DNA from: a virus | Lineage: Duplodnaviria; Heunggongvirae; Uroviricota; Caudoviricetes | Reading direction: 5' to 3' (one strand) | Length of the DNA stretch: 64,000 bases | Virus record (IMG/VR): IMGVR_UViG_2541047850_000005 | Coordinates: 3,554 to 67,553 of that record | In this document: piece by piece, positions 1 through 40,638 of the stretch | How the letters are laid out: every line of letters begins with the position of its first letter | Numbering within the stretch: position 1 is the stretch's first letter | Program-made: the position numbers and the translations under genes | The notes under the pieces: model-generated | Seen by the model: the letters and a program-made list of their open reading frames with translations, nothing else | Told to the model about the DNA's origin: nothing | Databases searched by the model: none

Positions 1-173
1 AAATTAAATTGGACGCTGGCTATACTCAAGCCAACCAGTTGATCAATCTTTGCGAACGTCTTGGACTTGTTGAAAAAGTCAAAGGAGCTGGGATCGCAAA
101 AGCTGGTACTCAGCAATATCGCTTCATTAAAAATGATTTCTACAATTATTTAGCTGATGCTTTCAAAGCGTAA
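1..173 (+). CDS. hypothetical protein, 3' end only (truncated by window edge)
   Basis: Open frame from window start to TAA at 171-173 (…YRFIKNDFYNYLADAFKA*); followed by hairpin AGCGCCCATAGTGGGCGCT at 187-205. Confidence 0.3.
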   Translation, partial: IKLDAGYTQANQLINLCERLGLVEKVKGAGIAKAGTQQYRFIKNDFYNYLADAFKA

Positions 174-220
174 TTAATGGAATCAAGCGCCCATAGTGGG
201 CGCTTTAAAGGAGCTTTAAA

Positions 221-424
221 ATGATCAGCTATGACAAGATCCGCGCGGAATATCGCGCAAAGTATCGCGCTTATAAACTGGAATTAATCGATGATTTGAT
301 CGCGCAACGCGACCAATTAAATTTTACGTTTTCTGATTTGCTTAACAGCAAGCAAGATTGCAAGCGCAAACGTGAATACTTACGTTTAAGCGCATTAATC
401 GGAAAACTTCAAAATTCTATTTAA
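221..424 (+). CDS. hypothetical small protein (67 aa)
   Basis: ORF track; AAAGGAG Shine-Dalgarno about 8 nt upstream of the ATG; no recognisable domain. Confidence 0.4.
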   Translation: MISYDKIRAEYRAKYRAYKLELIDDLIAQRDQLNFTFSDLLNSKQDCKRKREYLRLSALIGKLQNSI

Positions 425-445
425 TTTTTTTTAAGGAGCTTAATC

Positions 446-676
446 ATGTTTGTTCTTATCGCTGGCGTTAACGTCCATAATGAATATTATGTTAATCGCA
501 TCGCTGGGATCGCTGGTTACGCTGGGCGCGCAGTCGAGCTTATAGATGAAACGACGCGCAAAATTGACTTATTGAGCGACCAGGAGCGAAAAAAAGCAGA
601 CGTGAACGACGCTGATATATTTTTAATGTTAAAAGCGTTTGTAGAAATGGGGTTTAAAATCAGTTTACACAAATAA
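446..676 (+). CDS. hypothetical small protein (76 aa)
   Basis: ORF track; TAAGGAG SD upstream; followed directly by a hairpin plus T-run. Confidence 0.4.
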   Translation: MFVLIAGVNVHNEYYVNRIAGIAGYAGRAVELIDETTRKIDLLSDQERKKADVNDADIFLMLKAFVEMGFKISLHK

Positions 677-681
677 AATCG

Positions 682-706
682 AGCGCCCACTATGGGCGCT
701 TTTTTC
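682..706 (+). terminator. rho-independent terminator-like hairpin
   Basis: AGCGCCCACTATGGGCGCT stem-loop followed by TTTTT, 6 nt after the stop of the 446..676 ORF; same stem with inverted loop occurs at 187-205. Confidence 0.55.
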
Positions 707-1291
707 GTTTCCAATACACCTACCATAACGCGCCAATGATGGCGCGTTTTTATTGTCTTTAACTCACTCCAACAACATAAAAATAAGCGCCAAAATAACG
801 CCATAGACGCGATTTTATATCCTTGCCAGTACACACCCATTACTTAACACATTAACGCGCTTAAAACGCGTTATATTGCGCTATAGAGTATGGTTAATCA
901 TTGGCTTTTAGTCTTGCTTTATGATCCGCGTTTATTTGTCGGCGCGGATCGGCATTTTGTTTTGTTCCGTATCCGCTCGCGTATTATGTGCGCGTGATTT
1001 TTCACATAATCACACCACTTAATCACGTATGTGATTACGCTACGAAAGAAATCTGGATGTCTCAGGCGACGAAAGTCATAATAATTTTCCCCGCTCACCT
1101 GTCCGACAACCGCTGGTTGGATTCCACCAGCTTCCCGATGTTTTTTCTACATAAAGGCGAATGCAGCCGTTTCCCGAAAAAATCCTGGCCGTTTCCCGTC
1201 GGCTAATGAATACGTTCCTCGCCGTTTCTGAAAATTTCCCTACGGCAGCTGATGGATATAGAGAAAGGGCCGTTTCTGGCCCTCTTCTCAG

Positions 1292-1774
1292 TTACACGCC
1301 ATCAAGGATGTGGATGCGGTTGCTTGCGTATACATTCAGCATAAAGTTAGCGCAAAACAGTTTCCATGTATCAACGCCAGCGGTATACGTAATGTTTTTG
1401 CATTTAATTGCATTGTTGGCGATCCGCATCCCCTGCGATACTGCTTCATCGTCGGAAAATTTGAACGACGATTGAGTTTTAATCCAGACAGAAATCTGCG
1501 TAGCGAACTCAATCAGCTTGGACTGGCAGAATCGCCCGGAGCGCACCGGAAAGACGAACGTTCCGAATCCAGAATTTACCACATACGCTTTCTCAAATAC
1601 CCGCGAGTAACGACGATTGCCAATGATGTCGCGTGCAATAATGCATTTTTCTTGTGCTGACAGTTCTACCGTCTCATTGTCGCGCCATGCACCAAGTACT
1701 CGTTTTTCAATGTCAGAGAACGTTACAGCGATATTGCCATGTGCGGGTGCGTTTACAGTAGCGATAAAATTCAT
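1292..1774 (-). CDS. hypothetical protein (160 aa)
   Basis: ORF track; preceded (high-coordinate side) by motif-1 element at 1792-1812. Confidence 0.5.
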   Translation of the reverse strand: MNFIATVNAPAHGNIAVTFSDIEKRVLGAWRDNETVELSAQEKCIIARDIIGNRRYSRVFEKAYVVNSGFGTFVFPVRSGRFCQSKLIEFATQISVWIKTQSSFKFSDDEAVSQGMRIANNAIKCKNITYTAGVDTWKLFCANFMLNVYASNRIHILDGV

Positions 1775-1791
1775 GATTAATTCCTTATCGT

Positions 1792-1812
1792 AAATAACAA
1801 ATTGTTTTCTTG
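1792..1812 (-). promoter_or_regulatory. motif-1 palindromic operator/promoter element (AAAACAAsTTGTTTT family)
   Basis: aaataacaaattgttttcttg immediately upstream of the 1292..1774 start; one of at least 13 copies in the window. Confidence 0.45.
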
Positions 1813-2124
1813 TTGGCGTTAATTATCGTTGTACGAATAAGGCATCAAAGTGGAAAGTTGCGGTAGCCGGACGGGAACAGGTGGGTTTGTCGGTTGCCTG
1901 GAGGTAAGAGGTTGGTGTTTTTAGCCTGCGGGAAACAGGATGGTCATTTAAGGCCACCAGCAGTGGTGGCCTTAATAATTATCGACCGATTACGCTAAGG
2001 ATCTTTTCCTCAACTGATTTGTTGTTGCGACTAAACTGCCTTGCGTATCTGATGACAGAAGAGGCGTTTTGCTTTCTGACTATCTCGGCTCTTTCCTTCA
2101 GGCGTTTCTTGAAATCGCCCATAT

Positions 2125-2499
2125 TTACCACCAGGCGCAGAAGGTCAGTCTGTTATTGTGAAAGTCGTGGTTCTTAATCAGCTCTTCCACAAGTTTTTTC
2201 AACTCCCCCACGTCATGCCAGTACCCTTCATCGTACTCCTGACTGCCGAAGAAAAAACCTTCACAGGTAGGTAAGTACTCTTCGCAGTTACTTTCGTTCA
2301 TGTGCATCAAATGAGCTTTCAGAGCACAAATGTCATTCATCGTTAATTCTAAAAGCTCACAATTTTTGACTTCACCTACGTTGCGTTCCATCCACCCAAA
2401 GAGAGCATTGAACTTACGGAAGTAAGCAACCTTCTTTCTGGATGCATCGTTATTCAGATCGTTTTTTGGTTGCGTCTCAATGTAGATATCAAGTCCCAT
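2125..2499 (-). CDS. hypothetical protein (124 aa)
   Basis: ORF track; motif-1 copy at 2556-2574 upstream; hairpin GGCCACCAGCAGTGGTGGCC at 1961-1980 after the stop. Confidence 0.5.
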   Translation of the reverse strand: MGLDIYIETQPKNDLNNDASRKKVAYFRKFNALFGWMERNVGEVKNCELLELTMNDICALKAHLMHMNESNCEEYLPTCEGFFFGSQEYDEGYWHDVGELKKLVEELIKNHDFHNNRLTFCAWW

Positions 2500-2617
2500 G
2501 ATGGTTTCCTTATCAAGTTGCTTTCAGTGAAAGCATTTTCACAAATCAGATAAGGCAGAAAACAAATTGTTATCGGGCATAAGAAAATGGCGCGGTTTAC
2601 GCGCCATTCAAAGAGGA

Positions 2618-3025
2618 TTAAGCGAATACGCTTTCAGGGATTAAGGTGTCAGCAGGAATGCCGGAGGTAATGCGCAGACCATACTGACCAATCCAGGTAG
2701 TGTTAGTGTTCAGACTGGAAGCGAATACGGTGTTAACCATATTCATCATGGTTTCAAACACCTCTTTATTCACCTTACGGAAGTAACTTTCAATTTTCAA
2801 CAACAACGGGTCCGTTGCATCAAAAATGGACTGATATTGCGCCTCATATTCCCCGCCTGATGTATCTCCTTTACGCACAATAGTACTTGCCTGAACTTCA
2901 GTTCCAGTTTCGGTGTTGTACGTAACGACGGTGATTTTAGCTACATTCTTACCTTCGGCGCTTTCTGAAGCATAGTAGACATCAACTGTCAGGTTTTCTC
3001 GTTTAACGCTCATATCACTCTCCAT
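2618..3025 (-). CDS. hypothetical protein (about 131-135 aa)
   Basis: ORF track; likely true start a few codons inside (MSVKREN…). Confidence 0.45.
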   Translation of the reverse strand: MESDMSVKRENLTVDVYYASESAEGKNVAKITVVTYNTETGTEVQASTIVRKGDTSGGEYEAQYQSIFDATDPLLLKIESYFRKVNKEVFETMMNMVNTVFASSLNTNTTWIGQYGLRITSGIPADTLIPESVFA

Positions 3026-3139
3026 AGTGTCTTGGTTATTTTTCTATTTTATAGACATAGGTATGTACTTACAATACAAAAAAAACCCGTAAGGATGGCG
3101 GGGCTGTCGTACTGTCGACTAATTACCACTTGCACATTA

Positions 3140-3451
3140 TCAGGCTATTGCCATCACTGATGCTCTCTGAATCTCTTGCTGGGCCACGCGGTTAACTTCC
3201 ATCAAAGCCAGTTCGAGCTGATGTTCCGGCCACATTCTTTGAAATGCCATCCAGCCTTTTCCACGCTGGCGACGAACATTCATTACATAACGAGTAAAGG
3301 TGTTTTTATCGAAAGACACCGCTGTTTCACGGAACAGACGAATAGAGGTTCCATTGGCAACGATGTCCAGCAAAGTTAATTGAGCAACCAGCGCAGGCTT
3401 CTCTTTTCTCTTCTGGTCTTTGTCCAGACCAAGAACCAATGATTTTTTCAT
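3140..3451 (-). CDS. hypothetical protein (about 104 aa)
   Basis: ORF 3140..3481 trimmed to the ATG at 3451 (MKKSLVLG…) that follows a GGAG SD and lies downstream of motif-1 copy 3461-3479. Confidence 0.45.
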   Translation of the reverse strand: MKKSLVLGLDKDQKRKEKPALVAQLTLLDIVANGTSIRLFRETAVSFDKNTFTRYVMNVRRQRGKGWMAFQRMWPEHQLELALMEVNRVAQQEIQRASVMAIA

Positions 3452-3604
3452 CACAACTCCGTAAACAACTTGTTTTCTCAATGTCGTAAATAATACCAGT
3501 AAGAAAACGGCTACAAAGCATATTGATCAGGTGCATGAGCGATATGCAGGTTCTTCCCTGCGGCTATAGAGAAATTAAGCCAGCAATGCTGGCTTTGGTT
3601 GGGA

Positions 3605-3934
3605 TTACGCGAATACCTCAAGAAACTCCTGAACGTCCCAATGCTGGACGAGGTGAAGATAGACCTTAGAAATCACGTCATTTTCACTATCGCATGTGAA
3701 GTAGTACTTCTGGCTGCGGTTGTATGTGTCCACACAAAATTCGCTCATATCCATAAAGTCAGCATCTTCACCCATGTCGCAAATCATCAAAGCAGGTGCG
3801 TCATCACGAGTCATCAGCTCCAGCACCCATATTGAATTAATCAGAGTGGAAGACCAACCTTCCAGCTCATAAAACTGGTCAAACTCTTTTTGAGTCAATT
3901 TCTTAATTTGGTTGATGTCGATATTTGCAAACAT
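3605..3934 (-). CDS. hypothetical protein (about 109 aa)
   Basis: ORF 3605..4000 trimmed to ATG at 3934 (MFANIDINQ…) preceded by AAGGA; motif-1 variant at 3945-3962. Confidence 0.4.
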   Translation of the reverse strand: MFANIDINQIKKLTQKEFDQFYELEGWSSTLINSIWVLELMTRDDAPALMICDMGEDADFMDMSEFCVDTYNRSQKYYFTCDSENDVISKVYLHLVQHWDVQEFLEVFA

Positions 3935-4039
3935 AAAGCAATCCTTAAACATGTTGTTTTCTGAATTACGTAAACAATACCAGTAAGAAAACGGCCACAA
4001 AGTATATCGTTACGGTGCTGCGCTGCCCCGGAGGTTAAT

Positions 4040-4066
4040 AGCGACAAAAGCCACCGTGCTGGTGGC
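4040..4066 (-). terminator. rho-independent terminator-like hairpin
   Basis: Minus-strand GGCCACCAGCACGGTGGC followed by CTTTTGT, directly after the 4074..4292 stop. Confidence 0.5.
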
Positions 4067-4073
4067 CTCACTC

Positions 4074-4292
4074 TTAATCTTGGTCGTCCGGGAACTCGCT
4101 GTGTACCGCGCCAACCAGCTCCCGCTTTTCATCTTCACTCAGCAGGTGCCAGATATCCTTCCCTTTGGGCGATTCCCCTTCTGCCGGGACGAACGACCAC
4201 AACTTGCGGTACAACTCCGGCCCCACTGCATCCAGACACTCAGCCAGGGAATCCACGCCCCACACCTCAACCGTCACAGGCATCTTAATCAT
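4074..4292 (-). CDS. hypothetical small protein (72 aa)
   Basis: ORF track; terminator-like hairpin GCCACCGTGCTGGTGGCC at 4049-4066 just after the stop. Confidence 0.4.
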   Translation of the reverse strand: MIKMPVTVEVWGVDSLAECLDAVGPELYRKLWSFVPAEGESPKGKDIWHLLSEDEKRELVGAVHSEFPDDQD

Positions 4293-4879
4293 CTCTTCAT
4301 CCTCACTTCGTTTCTATAACGTCTAAATATGCTGTTTACTTGTTGGTGTTATTATCGCAATAAGACAAAGGCGAAAAAGGATTTTATGTCGGGAAAGCCA
4401 GGCTGGGCAGTGAATATCCGGGAACGACACGAGAGCCAGTATTTACGATATTCTGCTCTACGCACGCCGCGGGGCTGGTGGGCAGAATAATCCTCTCCCC
4501 GAAAACCTACTGAAATCGATTGTGACCCGCTGGCTGTCTGGCACAATTACGCTGTATCTGGCATTCAGAGGGAATCCAGCGGTAAGCAAGTCAGCCTGCA
4601 CGTGAGCGTCTCTCTTCTTCCCGCACATTACAGGTGGGTAGCTGCAACTCTCTCTCGCTATACCGGTACGCCGCCGTTCCTGAACCGGCATCGAGCCTTT
4701 TCCCGAAATCCACACAGGCAACTCGACCGTTTCCCTGAAAATCCCCAGCCGTTTCTGTAGCGTATGCAACCTTTTCTCTGTATGGACCGAAGGCTGACCG
4801 TAGGGGTGTTACGGGGGATGATGGTAAGATGTTGAATAAATACGAAAAAGGAGGCGACACCCCTCCTTCCCTCCCCACT

Positions 4880-5660
4880 TATACATACCTTGCTTCTTCG
4901 CTATACATGTTGTGTTTTCTTCGTGTTTTATCTGTCTCAACCTCTCTATAGGCGTTAATGCTTACTCCTTCCAGAACGTTCTATACGGCGACTATTTCTG
5001 TTGGTGAATTGGGTGTGTTGTTTTCTCTGTCGATGTATGTGGTTTCGTTCGTTTTGCGGTGGTTCTTCTATGGGGTGTTCTCGTCGTTTTGGTGATTGTT
5101 CTTCTCCGTGTATGGAGTAATGGCAGGTGGGCGATTCCTTTCGTTATTGTGTTTGAGTTGTTTGTCTGGAGTGTGTGAAGGGCTTTTGTAGTTATTCGTG
5201 TATTGGGTAATGGCGTTTCCCGTGATTGTTATGTTTCGTGTCTTTTGGGATTGAGAGAAACCTTGCGGTTACAGGCTTCGTTGGGGTTTCAGCGGTTCAG
5301 GTGTTTCTTCGCTGTTTGGGTAATGGCGTGTCGTGGGTATCGCGCGTATGAATGTTTTCGGATTGCCTGTGAAAGTTAGGTTGGTTATCCGGTAGCCTGG
5401 GAAGAAGAGGTGGGGTCTTTTCGGTAGCCTGCCATAAAGAGGTTGGTTGTTTTGGGTAATGGCATATGTGTTATTTGGTTGTTTTGTTATGCCTGAAAAT
5501 AAGTTGTTTATATGGTTGTGTAACGCAACGGGAGCGATTTTGAGCGTGTGTTTTTGTTGGTAGTGTGTTGAGTCGTCTGTGGTGAAAATTGGACGCTGTG
5601 GAGCTGTCTGCTGCGTAGGTTTACGGGTATAAGAAGTGATGTGTGAAAACGTCAATTTTT
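4880..5660. repeat. strand-asymmetric GT-rich repeat block (no credible ORF)
   Basis: Plus strand is almost only G and T over about 800 bp; at least 4 copies of GGGTAATGGC plus one GGAGTAATGGC, and repeated CGGTAGCCTG; ORFs called here are low-complexity. Confidence 0.5.
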
Positions 5661-5861
5661 TAGACCAAATCGGGAGAAAGCGTTGATGTTTCGTTGATCT
5701 GTTATTTAGTTGTTTTCTTATTGGTATAAACAACTGTAACCTATTGATATTTAAGGATGTGATTGCAGGCATGGAAGGGGAGTAGTGGCGATCAACGGAT
5801 TCTTATAGAAAAGAATCAAATTGTGACCGCCATTATCAACGGTTTGAATATGTTTGCAGAT

Positions 5862-6170
5862 TTACCAGTTCCAGCACTCAAGCCCTTCAACGACCGGCGC
5901 ACCACAATCAAAATGTACAGAGTCAAAGCCTACATCAAGTACTTTCTGAATGTTAGCAATCGCGCCTTCGGATATACCATATCGACGCAAGTCGTCTTTC
6001 CAGACATCATCCTGTAACCCGGCGTGGACAATACAACCGCCATCAATTTGTGAAACCCAATCCAGCTCATTGCTTGCGATCATGAATCGGCGAGCATCTT
6101 CCTCTGATGTATGAGATGAACTGATCAATGCCACCTGGTAGGCTTGGGTAATGTTCAACATTTCAACCAC
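5862..6170 (-). CDS. hypothetical protein (102 aa)
   Basis: ORF track; two motif-1 copies upstream at 6172-6194 and 6221-6240. Confidence 0.45.
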   Translation of the reverse strand: MVEMLNITQAYQVALISSSHTSEEDARRFMIASNELDWVSQIDGGCIVHAGLQDDVWKDDLRRYGISEGAIANIQKVLDVGFDSVHFDCGAPVVEGLECWNW

Positions 6171-23597: not shown

Positions 23598-23608
23598 CTT
23601 TTTTCTCG

Positions 23609-23628
23609 ATAGGTAAGTGATTACCTAT
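23609..23628. promoter_or_regulatory. motif-2 palindromic operator (ATAGGTAAG-N-CTTACCTAT family)
   Basis: ATAGGTAAGTGATTACCTAT, perfect 8-4-8 palindrome 12 bp upstream of the Dam-like start. Confidence 0.5.
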
Positions 23629-23780
23629 TTTTGCATTTGATTTCATGTATGGCAATCAAATAAAACGCGCCAGAAATGCGAACAAGAAGCTCTCTGGCGC
23701 GTTTTTGTGGTGCTGGGTATGGGTTATGCTTACCCAGCACTATAAAGCTCTCTATGGGCTTTATTTTCAGTAGGGGAACG

Positions 23781-24590
23781 TCATCCAATAGTGTACTCCG
23801 CGACAAACTTCTTAACGATCGGTGATTCTTCGTTCAATGTTAGATTTCCACCGTCTCTAACAGCAATTCCTGTAGCTGGAAATACAGCCATCATTTGCCC
23901 AGCCTGAGTTGACGCAGTGTTAAGCGGATACGGTTTTTCTGGATTGCTCATTAAAGCAATCTTAATACTATTACTTGTAGCCTTCTTTTCTGTGAGAAGG
24001 TGTCTCATGGAAATTACCGTGTAAACACTAATATCTGGACCTCCGCTAAACCAATTAAGAAGATTTAATATCTTATCCTTCGCTTTGACAGGCGCGTTTT
24101 CGTAAGCGTCTAAGAAAATATCTTTTTCTAAGCCTGCTTTATTGAAAAACGAATCATCTTTATCACTTAAAGTAAAACGAGGACCTCTTGCAACACGAGC
24201 TTTTTTATTTGTATTGCTATCATTTGACTGTTGAACTTTTAATTCATCATTAACCTCAACACACTCTTCAACCTCAATAAATCCCAATTGTTCTGGCTCG
24301 TTTTCGGCAGCTTCAACACTTTCAGCGTTAATTACGTTTATAGGCTCATGCGCTAACTCCAACTCATTTAAAGCAGAGCTGAAATCACCTGCTTTTTCTT
24401 CATTGAACAGTTCTTCGGCAACATCATCAGAACTCATGGCTACGCCAGCATCGAGGCCGAGAAGCAGATCGTCAATATCATCAGTATTTTCAACCTGTGC
24501 AGCTTTTTTTACTGGTTCATCAAGTGATTGCAACATGGCTGTCAGCTCATCCAGATCATCATTTGTCATTACATTTTCAACCGAACTCAT
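23781..24590 (-). CDS. hypothetical protein with acidic N-terminal half (269 aa)
   Basis: ORF track. Confidence 0.45.
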   Translation of the reverse strand: MSSVENVMTNDDLDELTAMLQSLDEPVKKAAQVENTDDIDDLLLGLDAGVAMSSDDVAEELFNEEKAGDFSSALNELELAHEPINVINAESVEAAENEPEQLGFIEVEECVEVNDELKVQQSNDSNTNKKARVARGPRFTLSDKDDSFFNKAGLEKDIFLDAYENAPVKAKDKILNLLNWFSGGPDISVYTVISMRHLLTEKKATSNSIKIALMSNPEKPYPLNTASTQAGQMMAVFPATGIAVRDGGNLTLNEESPIVKKFVAEYTIG

Positions 24591-38721: not shown

Positions 38722-38943
38722 TTATTCACATATCCACAGGATAGATCCTAATAAAGAGATCCATAGATAGATCCTTGTATAGATCAAATAAGATCCCCGA
38801 TCGCTGTAAGCCGCGCCACGACTGGTCTGAAGCCATGTTCATGTATGCTGTCAGCGGTAATTGATAGTCTGTCAGCGGTTCACCGTATGCTGCCAACTGT
38901 TTTTGGTATTCTGTCAGCGGCAAATCAAGTATGCTGTCAGCGG
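38722..38943 (+). promoter_or_regulatory. plasmid-type replication origin (DnaA boxes + GATC cluster + iterons)
   Basis: Tandem DnaA boxes TTATTCACA/TATCCACA (38722-38738), six GATC sites within 38744-38803, then 4-5 copies of iteron TATGCTGTCAGCGGT (38844-38943) ending 22 bp before the rep start. Confidence 0.7.
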
Positions 38944-38964
38944 TTGAATGACAAAGGTGTCCAC

Positions 38965-40059
38965 ATGTCCACAAAAAATAAAAAAGGTAAAAATAACAAA
39001 GAAGTAGAAGATAACATCGACAACTTTGAAGAAGGTTCCCTTGAATTGTACACAGGGGAACTTGTCCCTAATAGCAACAATACAGTCCAACCAATTGCGT
39101 TGATGCGACTGGGGTTGTTCGTCCCCACGCTTAAGGGAACAAAATACAGTAAACGTAACAAGCCAAATGAGATCGATGCTTCAAAGGAGCTTGTCCAGCT
39201 CGAAGTAGCCCGTTCTGAAGGCTATTCCGATATCAAGATAACCGGTCCTCGTCTCGACATGGATCATGATTTCAAAACGTGGGTGGGCGTTGTGCGTTCG
39301 CTGGCAGAATACGGCGAACCTAATGGTCGTGTCGAGTTAAGCATCACGAAATTTGCGAAGTTTTGTGGCTATCCATCGTCACAGATCCGCAAAACACTCC
39401 GCGACCGGCTTACAAACAGTCTTTTGAAGATCATGCGTACAACTCTGTCTTTCCAGAGAACGTATGAAGAAAAGAACGTCGACGGCTCTAACAAGATCTC
39501 GCTTCTGATGGTGCACCTCATCAATAGCGTGGACTACAACGAGCAGAAAGATACGGTGGTGTTCTATGCAGAACCGAAGCTGGCCGAACTATATCGCTTT
39601 GACCATAAGGTTCTTTTGCAGTTAAAGGTTATCAATAAGCTACCACGCAAAGAAACAGCACAGGCTCTGTACACCTTCATCGAAAGTCTTCCAACCAAGC
39701 CTGCGCCGGTATCGCTTGCTCGATTGCGTGCGCGACTCAATTTGAGTAGCAGGAATGTCAGCTCGCAGAATCAGACTATACGTAACGGCTTAAAAGCTCT
39801 CCAAGATTTGGGCTATCTCGAATACAGCGAGATTAAGCGTGGGCGGTCGATCTATATCCAGATTCACAGCCGCAATCCAAAACTCAAAGTCGCACCGCCA
39901 AAACCTGAAGACATCGAACCCAAAAAACCAGATGAGAAAGCTGGGGAAATTGATGCCAAACAGAACATTATCAACAAGATAACCGAACTTTCGCAGAATT
40001 TGACGCCTGAAAATATCAAGATGATTGAGATCCTTTCCAATAGTCTCAAACTGCTTTGA
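38965..40059 (+). CDS. repA: iteron-binding replication initiator (RepA-like)
   Basis: Only large plus-strand gene in the element, flanked by iterons; start set at MSTKNKKGK because the ORF-track start at 38845 lies inside the iterons. Confidence 0.7.
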   Translation: MSTKNKKGKNNKEVEDNIDNFEEGSLELYTGELVPNSNNTVQPIALMRLGLFVPTLKGTKYSKRNKPNEIDASKELVQLEVARSEGYSDIKITGPRLDMDHDFKTWVGVVRSLAEYGEPNGRVELSITKFAKFCGYPSSQIRKTLRDRLTNSLLKIMRTTLSFQRTYEEKNVDGSNKISLLMVHLINSVDYNEQKDTVVFYAEPKLAELYRFDHKVLLQLKVINKLPRKETAQALYTFIESLPTKPAPVSLARLRARLNLSSRNVSSQNQTIRNGLKALQDLGYLEYSEIKRGRSIYIQIHSRNPKLKVAPPKPEDIEPKKPDEKAGEIDAKQNIINKITELSQNLTPENIKMIEILSNSLKLL

Positions 40060-40590
40060 TATGCTGTCAGCGGTGAAATGTATGCTATCAGCGGCTATTT
40101 TTCTGAAAAGTATGCTGTGAACGGTTAAAGATATGCTACCAGCGGTATAGTGAGATAAACGTATGCTGTGAGCGGTAAATCATCTATCACCACTCAATGC
40201 TCTTTTATACCTCCCCAGTGGTTACTAACCTCGAAGAGTGCATTCCATATAGGTTTGCGCTCACTAACATTCTATTCCCATTGCGCTGATTACTTGTAGT
40301 GAAAGGTATTTATTGCCTGCTGCTCCCTGATAGAACGTATGCTGTCAGCGGTGTTTTATTGAGGAATTTTTGTTTGGATATGCTATCAGCGGTAATTAAT
40401 GGCATATGTCAGACCTTCGTATGCTGCCAGCGGTAATTTTGTTCTGGTTATACCCATACCGGTACACATTATTCATGCAATGTCTTAAGTATGCTGTCAG
40501 CGGTAAAAAATCGAGTAAAGTATGCTGTGAGCGGTGAGATAGACTCTCGATATGCTATCAGCGGCAGTTGATTGTGTATGCTGTCAGCGG
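40060..40590 (+). repeat. downstream iteron array (incA-like control locus)
   Basis: 12 copies of TATGCT(G/A)(T/C)(C/G)A(G/A)CGG(T/C) in two clusters (5 + 7) with irregular 3-170 bp spacing; same unit as upstream of the rep gene. Confidence 0.75.
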
Positions 40591-40638
40591 TGACGACTAT
40601 GAAATATGACTGCGGAACGTGCCGCAGTCAGTTTGCAT

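What the first reader, a model, noticed from the sequence alone, without database searches (positions are those of the whole stretch)
700..1290. Intergenic region densely packed with CGCG-core palindromes and CCGTTTCCC repeats
Within about 600 bp: AACGCGCCAATGATGGCGCGTT, AACGCGCTTAAAACGCGTT, ATCCGCG-N12-CGCGGAT, CACATAATCACA…CGTATGTGATTACG, then four CCGTTTC(C/T) repeats. It lies between plus-strand and minus-strand gene blocks, that is, a strand-switch region. It is a candidate regulatory hub or secondary origin.
Basis: seen in the sequence. Interest (0 to 1): 0.45.

Follow-up and report, generated by a model that had tools for sequence, protein, structure and literature searches.

The report
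Terminator cluster plus conserved iteron-like repeats
This unannotated 615-bp gap, where two gene blocks of an SSU5/pHCM2/pMT1-type phage-plasmid run into each other, is mostly ordinary transcription terminators, but it also holds a strongly conserved, evenly spaced GCCGTTTCC repeat array that resembles the replication-origin repeats of lambda-like phages and whose function is unknown.

Summary
Window 677-1291 holds 6 perfect hairpin palindromes of 7 bp or more, against a mean of 0.9 per 615 bp elsewhere. CGCG is about ten times enriched. Four of the window's six GCCGTTTCY copies lie here.

The window is Escherichia phage PhiR41_1, an SSU5-like phage-plasmid. The region is the unannotated gap between convergent operons. 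It persists at 580-665 bp in the ~85 relatives where I measured it, including Y. pestis pMT1, S. Typhi pHCM2 and phage SSU5.

Most CGCG palindromes are intrinsic terminators: T1, T2 and the terminator of the minus-strand 160-aa gene. Their stems are conserved and their loops vary or invert.

The GCCGTTTCC boxes are the most conserved element, found in all 19 diverse lineages. They share one orientation, sit 22 and 33-34 bp apart, and show no RNA-fold signal. The same core at a 22-bp period forms the origin iterons inside an O-like initiator gene of Klebsiella-type lambdoid prophages.

The phage-plasmid has no detectable O homologue, no DnaA box here and no GC-skew switch. Its plasmid replicon lies elsewhere. 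"Second origin" is therefore plausible but unproven. An sRNA or another protein-binding site remain live rivals.

The parts
446..676 (+). Last gene of the plus-strand operon (76 aa, phrog_1585, unknown function). It forms the left border of the gap.
681..707 (+). T1, an intrinsic terminator of the plus-strand operon: GAGCGCCCACTATGGGCGCTT followed by T6. A partial repeat box CGTTTCC (706-712) follows directly.
   Evidence: The fold is -15.5 kcal/mol, z -4.4; one search also flags it. The stem is essentially invariant in all 19 lineages, and the loop is sometimes inverted (ACTAT/ATAGT). Alifold z is about -9.8. The same hairpin occurs at 187-203.
727..753 (+). T2, a second intrinsic terminator: AACGCGCCA-ATGA-TGGCGCGTT followed by T5.
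   Evidence: The fold is -14.8 kcal/mol, z -4.1. The stem is kept while the loop varies or inverts (AATGAT/ATCATT, ATTGTT/AACAAT). Alifold z is -9.8 to -13.7. An IS1541 copy sits right behind it in pG8786. The same arms occur at 23664-23703.
779..810 (-). Conserved block AAAAATAAGCGCCA..GCGCC. On the minus strand it reads as a weak terminator-like hairpin followed by a T-run.
   Evidence: flag it. Alifold on the minus strand gives z -5.6 to -7.1. It is weak in this window (-6.4 kcal/mol, z -0.8). In relative L096 the corresponding hairpin is a good minus-strand terminator.
828..846 (.). Conserved block (A/G)GTACA(C/T)ACCCATTAC, of unknown role.
   Evidence: alignments
853..873 (.). Relatives keep an inverted repeat with an A/T-rich centre here, but with different arms.
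   Evidence: The fold is -8.0 kcal/mol, z -1.35. Variants include AAGCG-CTTAGAA-CGCTT in L100 and larger hairpins in the main group.
923..962 (+). Palindrome GATCCGCG-N12-CGCGGATC with two GATC sites and a T-rich tail. It is terminator-like and specific to the E. coli lineage.
   Evidence: The fold is -16.5 kcal/mol, z -3.2; flags it. It is only partly conserved in other lineages.
975..1010 (+). Conserved block CGCTCGCGTAT(T/C)AT carrying a -10-like hexamer TATTAT (982-987), overlapping the inverted repeat ATTATGTG/CACATAAT. This is a candidate plus-strand promoter.
   Evidence: A -10-like element is kept in 10 of 14 lineages, but with a poor -35 and a 19-nt spacer. L100 and L096 have TACAAT at the matching place. 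This is inference only.
1003..1039 (.). CACATAATCACA and the palindrome TAATCAC-GTAT-GTGATTA. CACATAATCACA is conserved in most lineages; the second copy is window-specific.
1124..1131 (-). Chi site (GCTGGTGG on the minus strand).
   Evidence: Most relatives have CCACCAGC near 1080 and GCTGGTGG near 1250.
1145..1160 (.). Conserved block TTTCTACATAAAGGC, immediately left of the repeat array.
1166..1246 (+). Phased array of three GCCGTTTC(C/T) boxes (1166-1174, 1188-1196, 1221-1229) interleaved with two TTTCCC(G/T)(T/A)CGGC boxes (1192-1203, 1235-1246). This is the most conserved element of the gap and looks iteron-like.
   Evidence: Copy counts are. GCCGTTTC is present in 19 of 19 lineages, 47 copies in total. 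Spacing is 22 and then 33-34 bp in nearly all lineages. Near-invariant columns are shown. There is no significant RNA fold on either strand (z -1.4 and -0.5). The same core and 22-bp period form the iterons of lambdoid O-like genes.
1261..1290 (-). Intrinsic terminator of the minus-strand 160-aa gene: GGGCC-AGAAAC-GGCCC followed by TTTCTCTATAT. The fourth GCCGTTTCT copy (1269-1277) forms its loop.
   Evidence: The fold is -17.7 kcal/mol, z -4.1. The stem changes in a compensatory way to GGGGC/GCCCC in relatives.
1292..1774 (-). Last gene of the long minus-strand block (160 aa, phrog_1641, unknown function). It forms the right border of the gap and co-occurs with the repeat array.
   Evidence: It has no fold match. 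Serratia locus L099 lacks both this gene and the repeats.

Best explanation
The gap is a composite of two parts.

(1) Terminators (shown). The left quarter and the right end are Rho-independent terminators that stop the two converging operons. T1 (681-707) and T2 (727-753) act on the plus strand. The hairpin at 1261-1290 acts on the minus strand. A weaker minus-strand hairpin lies near 786-810. These account for most of the 'CGCG palindromes'. Together they leave the central ~450 bp shielded from read-through.

(2) Repeat array (inferred). Inside this shielded zone, the three same-orientation GCCGTTTCC boxes at 1166-1246 are spaced 22 and 33-34 bp apart, about two and three helical turns. They are interleaved with TTTCCC-N2-CGGC boxes. 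I propose that they are a DNA-level binding array for a sequence-specific protein, in other words iteron-like.

The most likely role is in replication of the phage-plasmid: an origin or origin-control site for the phage-type replisome that the element encodes (DnaB-like helicase, primase, Pol III alpha). This would be separate from the RepB/iteron plasmid origin at about 38.8-40.6 kb. The binding protein is not identified.
For: Terminators:
- Stable GC-rich hairpins with U-tracts lie directly behind stop codons.
- Stems are conserved with free or inverted loops, or change in a compensatory way.
- Alifold z-scores of -7 to -14 occur only at T1 and T2.

Repeat array:
- Four of six copies in 64 kb fall within 112 bp.
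- The core is invariant in all 19 diverse lineages, down to relatives whose 160-aa protein is only 51% identical, while the flanks diverge.
- Orientation is fixed, and the spacing is 22 bp then 33-34 bp.
- There is no RNA-structure signal and no conserved ORF.
- The gap is more conserved than synonymous sites of the neighbouring gene in some clade pairs: 89% against 73% overall and 52% at third codon positions.
- The same GCCGTTTCC core, the same 22-bp period and the same junction GCCGTTTCC-N-TTCGGYT form the 4-7 iterons inside a 'replication initiation O-like' gene of many ~40-kb lambdoid prophages. That gene matches phrog_9773 at E 2.5e-57, and its C-terminus is homologous to annotated O proteins. 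A DnaA box and AT-rich GATC repeats lie next to those iterons.
- A profile of the array aligns over about 80 nt to those origins.
Against: - No homologue of the O-like initiator or of its DNA-binding domain is found in the phage-plasmid.
- Neither flanking protein is related to it.
- No DnaA box with one mismatch or fewer occurs in the gap.
- No AT-rich unwinding element lies directly beside the boxes.
- Cumulative GC skew of the complete relative p09EL50 is monotonic, with no switch here.
- Only the right half of the lambdoid iteron plus the inter-iteron junction is shared, not the full inverted-repeat iteron.
- The lambdoid loci were found by searching with the motif itself. The independent similarity is therefore only about 5-7 further bases plus the spacing, and the nhmmer score is modest at 14.7 bits.
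- The clades are mosaics produced by recombination, which inflates apparent conservation.
- There are no expression, binding or replication data.
Confidence: 0.4

Rival explanations
1. The shielded central region encodes one or more unannotated small or antisense RNAs. One candidate is a plus-strand RNA from the conserved TAT(T/C)AT -10-like element near 982-987, running through the repeat boxes and antisense to the 3' end of the 160-aa gene. Another is a minus-strand RNA ending at the hairpin and T-run near 786-810. On this view the conserved boxes are RNA motifs.
For: - Terminators flank the centre on both sides, and a minus-strand terminator-like hairpin is conserved at its left edge.
- In L096 that hairpin is a good minus-strand terminator.
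- A -10-like hexamer is kept in 10 of 14 lineages and recurs as TACAAT in deep relatives.
- The boxes can form 4-5-bp GCCG...CGGC stems, with a few compensatory changes.
- The palindrome at 853-873 keeps its inverted-repeat character with different arms in different lineages.
Against: - No Rfam family matches.
- There is no conserved-structure signal between 830 and 1250 on either strand; z-scores are mostly 0 to -3.
- The array does not fold better than shuffles.
- The promoter candidates have poor -35 elements or 19-nt spacers, and the consensus scan finds fewer promoters than chance.
- Two Y. pestis pMT1 sRNAs reported by RNA-seq both map elsewhere (PMC3770706).
- GGA motifs are not enriched, so it is not a CsrB-type sponge.
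Confidence: 0.2
2. The gap is nothing beyond a two-way transcription stop zone and a recombination joint. On this view the repeat boxes and blocks are remnants, back-up terminators, or a C-rich Rho-loading (rut) stretch. Their conservation reflects frequent exchange of this segment between phage-plasmids rather than selection on a specific site.
For: - Terminator-like hairpins are three to four times over-represented.
- The plus strand of 1040-1290 is C-rich (GC skew -0.16 to -0.27), as rut sites are.
- The mosaic structure is clear: PhiR41_1 and RHB41 are 99% identical in the neighbouring gene but only 83% in the gap, and L041 is a patchwork.
- Chi sites are present.
- The middle is replaced, expanded or deleted in some lineages, and an IS sits in the gap in pG8786.
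Against: - A 9-17-nt sequence kept exactly, in fixed orientation and fixed 22/33-34-bp spacing, across relatives whose flanking protein is only 51-69% identical, is not expected for rut sites or neutral remnants.
- The gap length is held at 580-665 bp in ~85 sequences: the 79 distinct sequences aligned plus L096-L098, L100 and L101.
Confidence: 0.2
3. The boxes are binding sites for a phage-plasmid protein with a non-replicative role. Examples are a centromere-like or silencing site, or an operator array. Candidate binders are the 216-aa winged-helix protein encoded at the left of the gap or the 160-aa protein at its right.
For: - The array always accompanies the 160-aa gene and is missing where that gene is missing.
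- Phased direct repeats in a transcriptionally quiet gap are typical of centromeres.
Against: - The Serratia element keeps the 216-aa gene without any box.
- The boxes do not occur near promoters elsewhere in the element or in the 216-aa gene's own promoter.
- The ParA-like partition genes lie about 70 kb away.
Confidence: 0.15

Closest known systems
Rho-independent (intrinsic) terminators at a convergent gene junction, in tandem or bidirectional
   Same: T1, T2 and the 1261-1290 hairpin are GC-rich stems with U-tracts directly behind stop codons. Their stems are conserved and their loops vary or invert.
   Different: They account for only about 150 of the 615 bp. The 450-bp conserved interior is not explained by termination.
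Lambda-type origin (ori inside the O gene): iterons of the O-like initiator family phrog_9773, found in Klebsiella phage ST405-OXA48phi1.2 and many ~40-kb enterobacterial prophages; its N-terminal domain is also found in phage mEp390
   Same: The GCCGTTTCC core is identical, the period is 22 bp, and all copies share one orientation. The junction sequence GCCGTTTCC-N-TTCGG(C/T)T is shared, 16 of 18 positions with relative L035.
   Different: In the lambdoid phages there are 4-7 full 22-bp iterons (ATTCGGC-N5-GCCGTTTCC, each an inverted repeat). They lie inside the initiator gene, next to a DnaA box and AT-rich GATC repeats. Here there are three boxes in a non-coding gap, lacking the left half-site. 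There is no O-like gene anywhere in the element and no DnaA box.
P1-type plasmid replicon (oriR iterons - repA - incA iterons), as present in this same element at about 38.8-40.6 kb
   Same: It also consists of arrays of phased direct repeats, here at 21-bp spacing, bound by an initiator.
   Different: The iteron sequence GTATGCTGTCAGCGGT is unrelated. That locus has its RepB-family initiator and DnaA boxes; the gap at 677-1291 has neither.
P4 crr / plasmid incompatibility iteron clusters (initiator-binding repeats placed away from the origin)
   Same: The shared idea is an orphan cluster of initiator-binding repeats separated from the initiator gene. This comparison rests on my own knowledge of those systems.
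   Different: There is no sequence relationship, and no second cluster of the same boxes elsewhere in the element.

Membership tests
Intrinsic (Rho-independent) terminator | Stable GC-rich stem-loop | tested here: met
   T1 folds at -15.5, T2 at -14.8 and the 1261-1290 hairpin at -17.7 kcal/mol, with z-scores of -4.1 to -4.4.
Intrinsic (Rho-independent) terminator | U-rich tract directly 3' of the stem, on the strand of the upstream gene and behind its stop codon | tested here: met
   T6 follows T1, T5 follows T2, and TTTCTCTATAT follows the minus-strand hairpin. The stop codons end at 676 (plus-strand gene) and 1292 (minus-strand gene).
Intrinsic (Rho-independent) terminator | Pairing maintained in relatives | tested here: met
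   Stems are invariant with variable or inverted loops. The minus-strand stem changes from GGGCC/GGCCC to GGGGC/GCCCC.
Intrinsic (Rho-independent) terminator | Transcripts actually end there | not testable with these tools
   This needs Term-seq or 3' RACE.
Iteron-type phage origin (lambda O-type ori) | Three or more phased direct repeats of one sequence | tested here: met
   Three boxes share one orientation, spaced 22 and 33-34 bp apart, and are conserved in 19 of 19 lineages.
Iteron-type phage origin (lambda O-type ori) | Each iteron is a ~19-22-bp inverted repeat (a dimer site) | tested here: not met
   Only the GCCGTTTCC half and the TTCGG junction are present. The ATTCGGC-N5 left half is absent.
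Iteron-type phage origin (lambda O-type ori) | Cognate initiator encoded in the element, with the iterons inside or next to its gene | tested here: not met
   tblastn and an HMM of the O N-terminal domain against all ORFs of p09EL50 give a best E of 0.4. hhalign against both flanking proteins is negative.
Iteron-type phage origin (lambda O-type ori) | Adjacent AT-rich unwinding region and/or DnaA box | tested here: not met
   No DnaA box with one mismatch or fewer occurs in 677-1291. The AT-rich stretch (750-850, 37-39% GC) is 300 bp away from the boxes.
Iteron-type phage origin (lambda O-type ori) | Replication starts there | not testable with these tools
   GC skew of the whole element is monotonic and therefore uninformative.
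Plasmid RepA/RepB iteron replicon of this element | Shares the initiator's iteron sequence | tested here: not met
   The iterons GTATGCTGTCAGCGGT occur at 38823-38950 and 40059-40611 and are unrelated to the boxes.
Small regulatory RNA gene | Match to a described RNA family | tested here: not met
   An Rfam scan of 1-6000 at E of 1 or less gives only sub-threshold chance hits.
Small regulatory RNA gene | Own promoter and terminator | tested here: inconclusive
   There is a conserved -10-like hexamer with a poor -35, and a weak minus-strand terminator-like hairpin.
Small regulatory RNA gene | Conserved secondary structure or covariation | tested here: not met
   No signal appears between 830 and 1250. 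The 4-bp stems in the array are mostly invariant.
Small regulatory RNA gene | Detected transcript | tested here: inconclusive
   The published pMT1 sRNAs map elsewhere. No data set covering this gap could be read.
Partition centromere (parS / parC / tubC) | Repeat array adjacent to its par operon | tested here: not met
   The ParA-like gene and its small partner lie at p09EL50 93.2-94.2 kb. The ParB/Srx-domain genes lie about 6 kb away, next to the packaging genes.
Type III toxin-antitoxin (repeat RNA upstream of a ~170-aa toxin) | Tandem ~36-nt repeats upstream of the toxin gene on the same strand | tested here: not met
   The boxes are short and non-tandem, and they lie downstream of the 160-aa gene. 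That protein has no ToxN-like fold match.

The most novel reading that the evidence does not exclude
The GCCGTTTCC array is an orphan copy of a lambdoid O-type iteron set that works without a resident O gene. Two versions are possible. It could be the so far unmapped lytic origin of SSU5-like phage-plasmids, fired by an unrecognised initiator. Alternatively, it could bind the O protein of co-resident Klebsiella- or E. coli-type lambdoid prophages in trans, either to hitch a replication boost on their induction or to titrate their initiator as a form of inter-phage interference.
Probability: 0.12. Interest if true: 0.75.

Novelty: new variant of a known kind. Interest (0 to 1): 0.45.

Why it matters
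SSU5-like phage-plasmids include Y. pestis pMT1, S. Typhi pHCM2 and many resistance-carrying plasmids of E. coli and Klebsiella. How they switch from low-copy plasmid replication to phage-type replication is not known, and no lytic origin has been mapped.

This unannotated element is conserved in every lineage I examined that carries the 160-aa gene. It copies the core and phasing of genuine origin iterons. That makes it a concrete, cheap target for deletion, binding and marker-frequency experiments.

If the array turns out to be inert, the region is still worth annotating as the element's main two-way terminator zone and as a recombination joint.

Tried and rejected
- **Rfam scan** of 1-6000: nothing.
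- **Sliding RNAalifold** with column-shuffle z-scores on 14 lineage representatives: only T1, T2 and one weak minus-strand hairpin stand out.
- **Conserved ORF search** in the gap: none. The MAQGLK... ORF is open in only 7 of 14 lineages, and indels break its frame.
- **CsrB-like GGA sponge** on the minus strand: GGA is not enriched over composition.
- **Relation to the plasmid's own RepB iterons**: none.
- **DnaA boxes**: none in the gap.
- **GC skew of the complete p09EL50**: monotonic.
- **Dam/GATC clustering**: only two sites, as expected by chance.
- **Homology of the flanking proteins to known families**:
  - Pfam gives nothing and PHROGs gives 'unknown function'.
  - PDB sequence search gives nothing.
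  - The 216-aa protein is a generic winged helix.
  - The 160-aa protein has no fold match.
- **O-like initiator in the phage-plasmid**: none by tblastn or HMM. No annotated initiator lies near the DnaB-like helicase.
- **Gap as a relic of O coding sequence**: no.
- **Eyeball comparisons**, done from memory of the consensus sequences: Xer/dif-like site, P1 parS boxes, sigma-54 promoter, LexA box and Tus/Ter. None gave a convincing match.
- **Literature**:
  - Nothing on this gap was found in any phage-plasmid paper searched.
  - Y. pestis RNA-seq sRNAs on pMT1 map elsewhere.
  - The Cyrano transcriptome is reported per gene only.
  - One relevant 2026 preprint could not be opened.
Full report
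**Identity and context.** The window is 100% identical to Escherichia phage PhiR41_1 (PV340561.1, reverse strand) and 99% identical to plasmid p09EL50 of E. coli O104:H4. Both are SSU5/pHCM2/pMT1-type phage-plasmids. In the complete relative p09EL50 almost all genes are on one strand. The only sizeable opposite-strand block is a 5.7-kb operon encoding a DEAD-box helicase, an FljA-like regulator, a 216-aa protein and two small proteins. It ends at window 676. The long minus-strand block ends with a 160-aa gene whose stop codon ends at 1292. The finding (677-1291) is therefore the convergent junction of the element. No record annotates anything there, including the current RefSeq annotation.

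All quoted sequences are at the stated places.
- The gap contains 6 distinct perfect hairpin palindromes of 7 bp or more. Other 615-bp windows average 0.89, and only one independent site (~23.4 kb) reaches 6.
- CGCG occurs 9 times in 727-1026, against a mean of 0.86 per 300 bp elsewhere.
- GCCGTTTCY occurs 6 times in 64 kb against 1.05 expected, and four of the copies lie in 1166-1277.
- Terminator-like hairpins are nearly fourfold over shuffles.

**Conservation.** A gap of 580-665 bp lies at this junction in ~85 sequences measured: 66 distinct viral-contig copies and 13 plasmid or phage records (79 aligned), plus L096-L098, L100 and L101. A distant blastn of the gap also hits 784 plasmid records. 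Hosts include E. coli, E. fergusonii, E. albertii, Klebsiella, Enterobacter, Citrobacter, Cronobacter, Salmonella (pHCM2, SSU5), Y. pestis (pMT1) and Buttiauxella.

In some clade pairs the gap is far more similar than the neighbouring gene. Klebsiella against the Citrobacter group gives 89% in the gap, 73% in the gene and 52% at third codon positions. In others the relation is reversed: PhiR41_1 against RHB41 gives 83% in the gap and 99% in the gene. The segment is therefore both constrained and a recombination mosaic. Whole-gap identity alone does not prove selection. The block pattern inside single pairwise comparisons is more telling.

**What the palindromes are.**
- T1 (681-701 plus T6; -15.5 kcal/mol) and T2 (727-748 plus T5; -14.8 kcal/mol) are textbook intrinsic terminators of the plus-strand operon.
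- Their stems are essentially invariant. Their loops differ and are often exact inversions: ACTAT/ATAGT, AATGAT/ATCATT and ATTGTT/AACAAT. This is the known flip of a loop between perfect inverted arms.
- T1 and T2 are the only parts of the gap with strong consensus-fold z-scores, -7 to -14.
- The hairpin at 1261-1290 (-17.7 kcal/mol, followed by a T-rich run on the minus strand) terminates the 160-aa gene. Its stem changes in a compensatory way to GGGGC/GCCCC in relatives.
- A weaker minus-strand hairpin with a T-run near 786-810 is conserved. In relative L096 the corresponding hairpin is a good minus-strand terminator.
- The remaining palindromes (853-873, 923-950, 983-1010, 1020-1037) are lineage-variable. 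The deepest relatives (L096, L100, L101) lack the CGCG palindromes altogether and instead carry two or three copies of the T1 hairpin.
- An IS200-family element sits directly behind T2 in Y. pestis pG8786.

Thus the 'CGCG palindrome' half of the finding is largely ordinary.

**The repeat array.** GCCGTTTC(C) is the most widely shared word in the gap along with the T1 stem. It occurs in 19 of 19 diverse lineages, 47 copies in total. In the window the boxes start at 1166, 1188 and 1221, and a fourth copy forms the loop of the terminator (1269). All are in the same orientation. The spacing is 22 bp and then 33-34 bp in nearly every lineage, which is about two and three helical turns. A second box, TTTCCC(G/T)(T/A)CGGC (CCCTGCGG in most relatives), follows boxes 2 and 3. 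The array does not fold better than shuffled sequence on either strand (z -1.4 and -0.5). Only 4-bp GCCG/CGGC stems can be drawn, and they are mostly invariant. No ORF is conserved. The array lies outside both operons' terminators. These properties fit a double-stranded DNA site for a sequence-specific protein better than an RNA.

**The lead from other phages.** I scanned viral contigs for two GCCGTTTCC boxes 10-16 nt apart. Besides SSU5-like contigs, this returned a large family of ~40-kb lambdoid prophages. There, 4-7 boxes lie inside one gene. In locus L120 that gene follows cI-, cro- and cII-like genes and matches 'replication initiation O-like' (phrog_9773, E 2.5e-57). Its C-terminal half is homologous to annotated O proteins of many lambdoid phages. 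The closest named phage is Klebsiella phage ST405-OXA48phi1.2. The boxes there are the right halves of 22-bp iterons, ATTCGGC-N5-GCCGTTTCC, repeated at 22-, 25- and 45-bp steps. A perfect DnaA box and AT-rich GATCTGT repeats precede them. This is the classical lambda arrangement of ori inside O. The junction of two such iterons, GCCGTTTCC-A-TTCGGCT, matches box 2 of the phage-plasmids (GCCGTTTCC-C-TTCGG(T/C)T). A profile of the phage-plasmid array aligns to these origins over about 80 nt (14.7 bits).

Caveat: these loci were retrieved with the motif itself. The independent similarity is the extra TTCGG(C/T)T and the 22-bp period.

**What speaks against an origin.**
- The phage-plasmid has no detectable O-like protein or O-type DNA-binding domain.
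- The proteins next to the DnaB-like helicase and primase are of unknown family.
- The left half-site of the lambdoid iteron is missing.
- There is no DnaA box in the gap.
- GC skew of the complete p09EL50 falls monotonically, with no switch.
- The plasmid replicon lies elsewhere: a RepB-family initiator flanked by about 15 unrelated iterons and two DnaA boxes at about 38.7-40.6 kb.

**Candidate binders.**
- The 160-aa gene always accompanies the array, but its product has no fold match.
- Neither protein is related to the O-like protein.

**Other readings.**
- An sRNA remains possible. The centre is shielded by terminators. A -10-like TAT(T/C)AT is conserved at 982-987. The 853-873 palindrome keeps its hairpin character with changed arms. 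Against this, there is no family match, no structure signal and no reported transcript.
- A purely passive terminator and recombination zone does not explain an exactly conserved, phased 9-17-mer.

**Verdict.** The palindromes are mainly terminators. The GCCGTTTCC array is a real, conserved and unannotated cis-element. It is best read as an iteron-like protein-binding array, possibly replication-related, at moderate confidence. It does not qualify as a member of the lambda-type origin family on the features tested.

Noticed in passing
window 38722-40611: This is the element's plasmid replicon. A RepB-family initiator gene (about 39078-40292) is flanked by 5 upstream and about 10 downstream iterons GTATGCTGTCAGCGGT at 21-bp spacing. 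Two adjacent DnaA boxes lie at 38722-38738. The layout resembles P1 oriR-repA-incA.
   Followed up: partly
whole window; 1124-1131 in the gap: Chi (GCTGGTGG) occurs 13 times against 1.3 expected, on mixed strands. Most relatives carry an opposed Chi pair (CCACCAGC at ~1080, GCTGGTGG at ~1250 in alignment coordinates) bracketing the repeat array. PhiR41_1 has lost the right-hand site (GCTGATGG).
   Followed up: partly
window 187-203: The T1 hairpin sequence (GCGCCCA-TAG-TGGGCGC, with the loop inverted) also sits directly behind the 216-aa gene, without a full T-run. The small 67-aa and 76-aa genes therefore lie between two copies of the same hairpin. Relative L096 lacks these genes and has the hairpin copies adjacent to each other.
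   Followed up: partly
window 23600-23960: This is a second palindrome-dense spot, with 6 perfect hairpins of 7 bp or more. It includes a hairpin with the same arms as T2 (AACGCGCCAGA...TCTGGCGCGTT, 21-nt loop, T-run) at 23661-23708.
   Followed up: no
window ~4290-5830: About 1.5 kb has no CDS annotated in p09EL50 and only weak ORFs here. The GC and AT skew reverse sharply, and a 32-bp tandem repeat lies at 5390-5458. There was no Rfam hit at E of 1 or less.
   Followed up: no
L222 (Y. pestis pG8786) 1382-2086, corresponding to window ~753: An IS1541/IS200-family element of about 705 bp is inserted immediately after terminator T2, with an 8-bp overlap in the alignment (IGR 77-84) that may be a target duplication. 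It leaves the rest of the gap and the repeat array intact.
   Followed up: yes
L096 3487-4150 (reverse strand); L085: The middle of the gap carries variable-number short tandem units. L096 has nine 8-bp units of TTTAGCNN, and L085 has extra TTTTAGCGCG units where the main group has three. This segment appears prone to expansion, or it may be a second repeat-type site.
   Followed up: no
L099 (Serratia quinivorans contig) 3001-4380: This is a distant relative of the 216-aa winged-helix gene. A 420-bp gap with one T1-like hairpin follows it. There is no 160-aa gene and no CCGTTTC motif anywhere in the 6.6 kb.
   Followed up: yes
window 61000-62200 versus p09EL50 82766-83589: p09EL50 has four tRNA genes (Ser, Thr, Tyr, Asn) at the syntenic position. 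ARAGORN finds no tRNA anywhere in this window, and the last 6 kb of the window is only about 35-36% GC.
   Followed up: no
L001 5400-5460 (upstream of the window start): The likely promoter of the 216-aa gene is TTGCAA-N16-GATAAT. It contains TTCGCGTATCGAT, which resembles the conserved gap block CTCGCGTAT(C/T)AT at 977-988.
   Followed up: no
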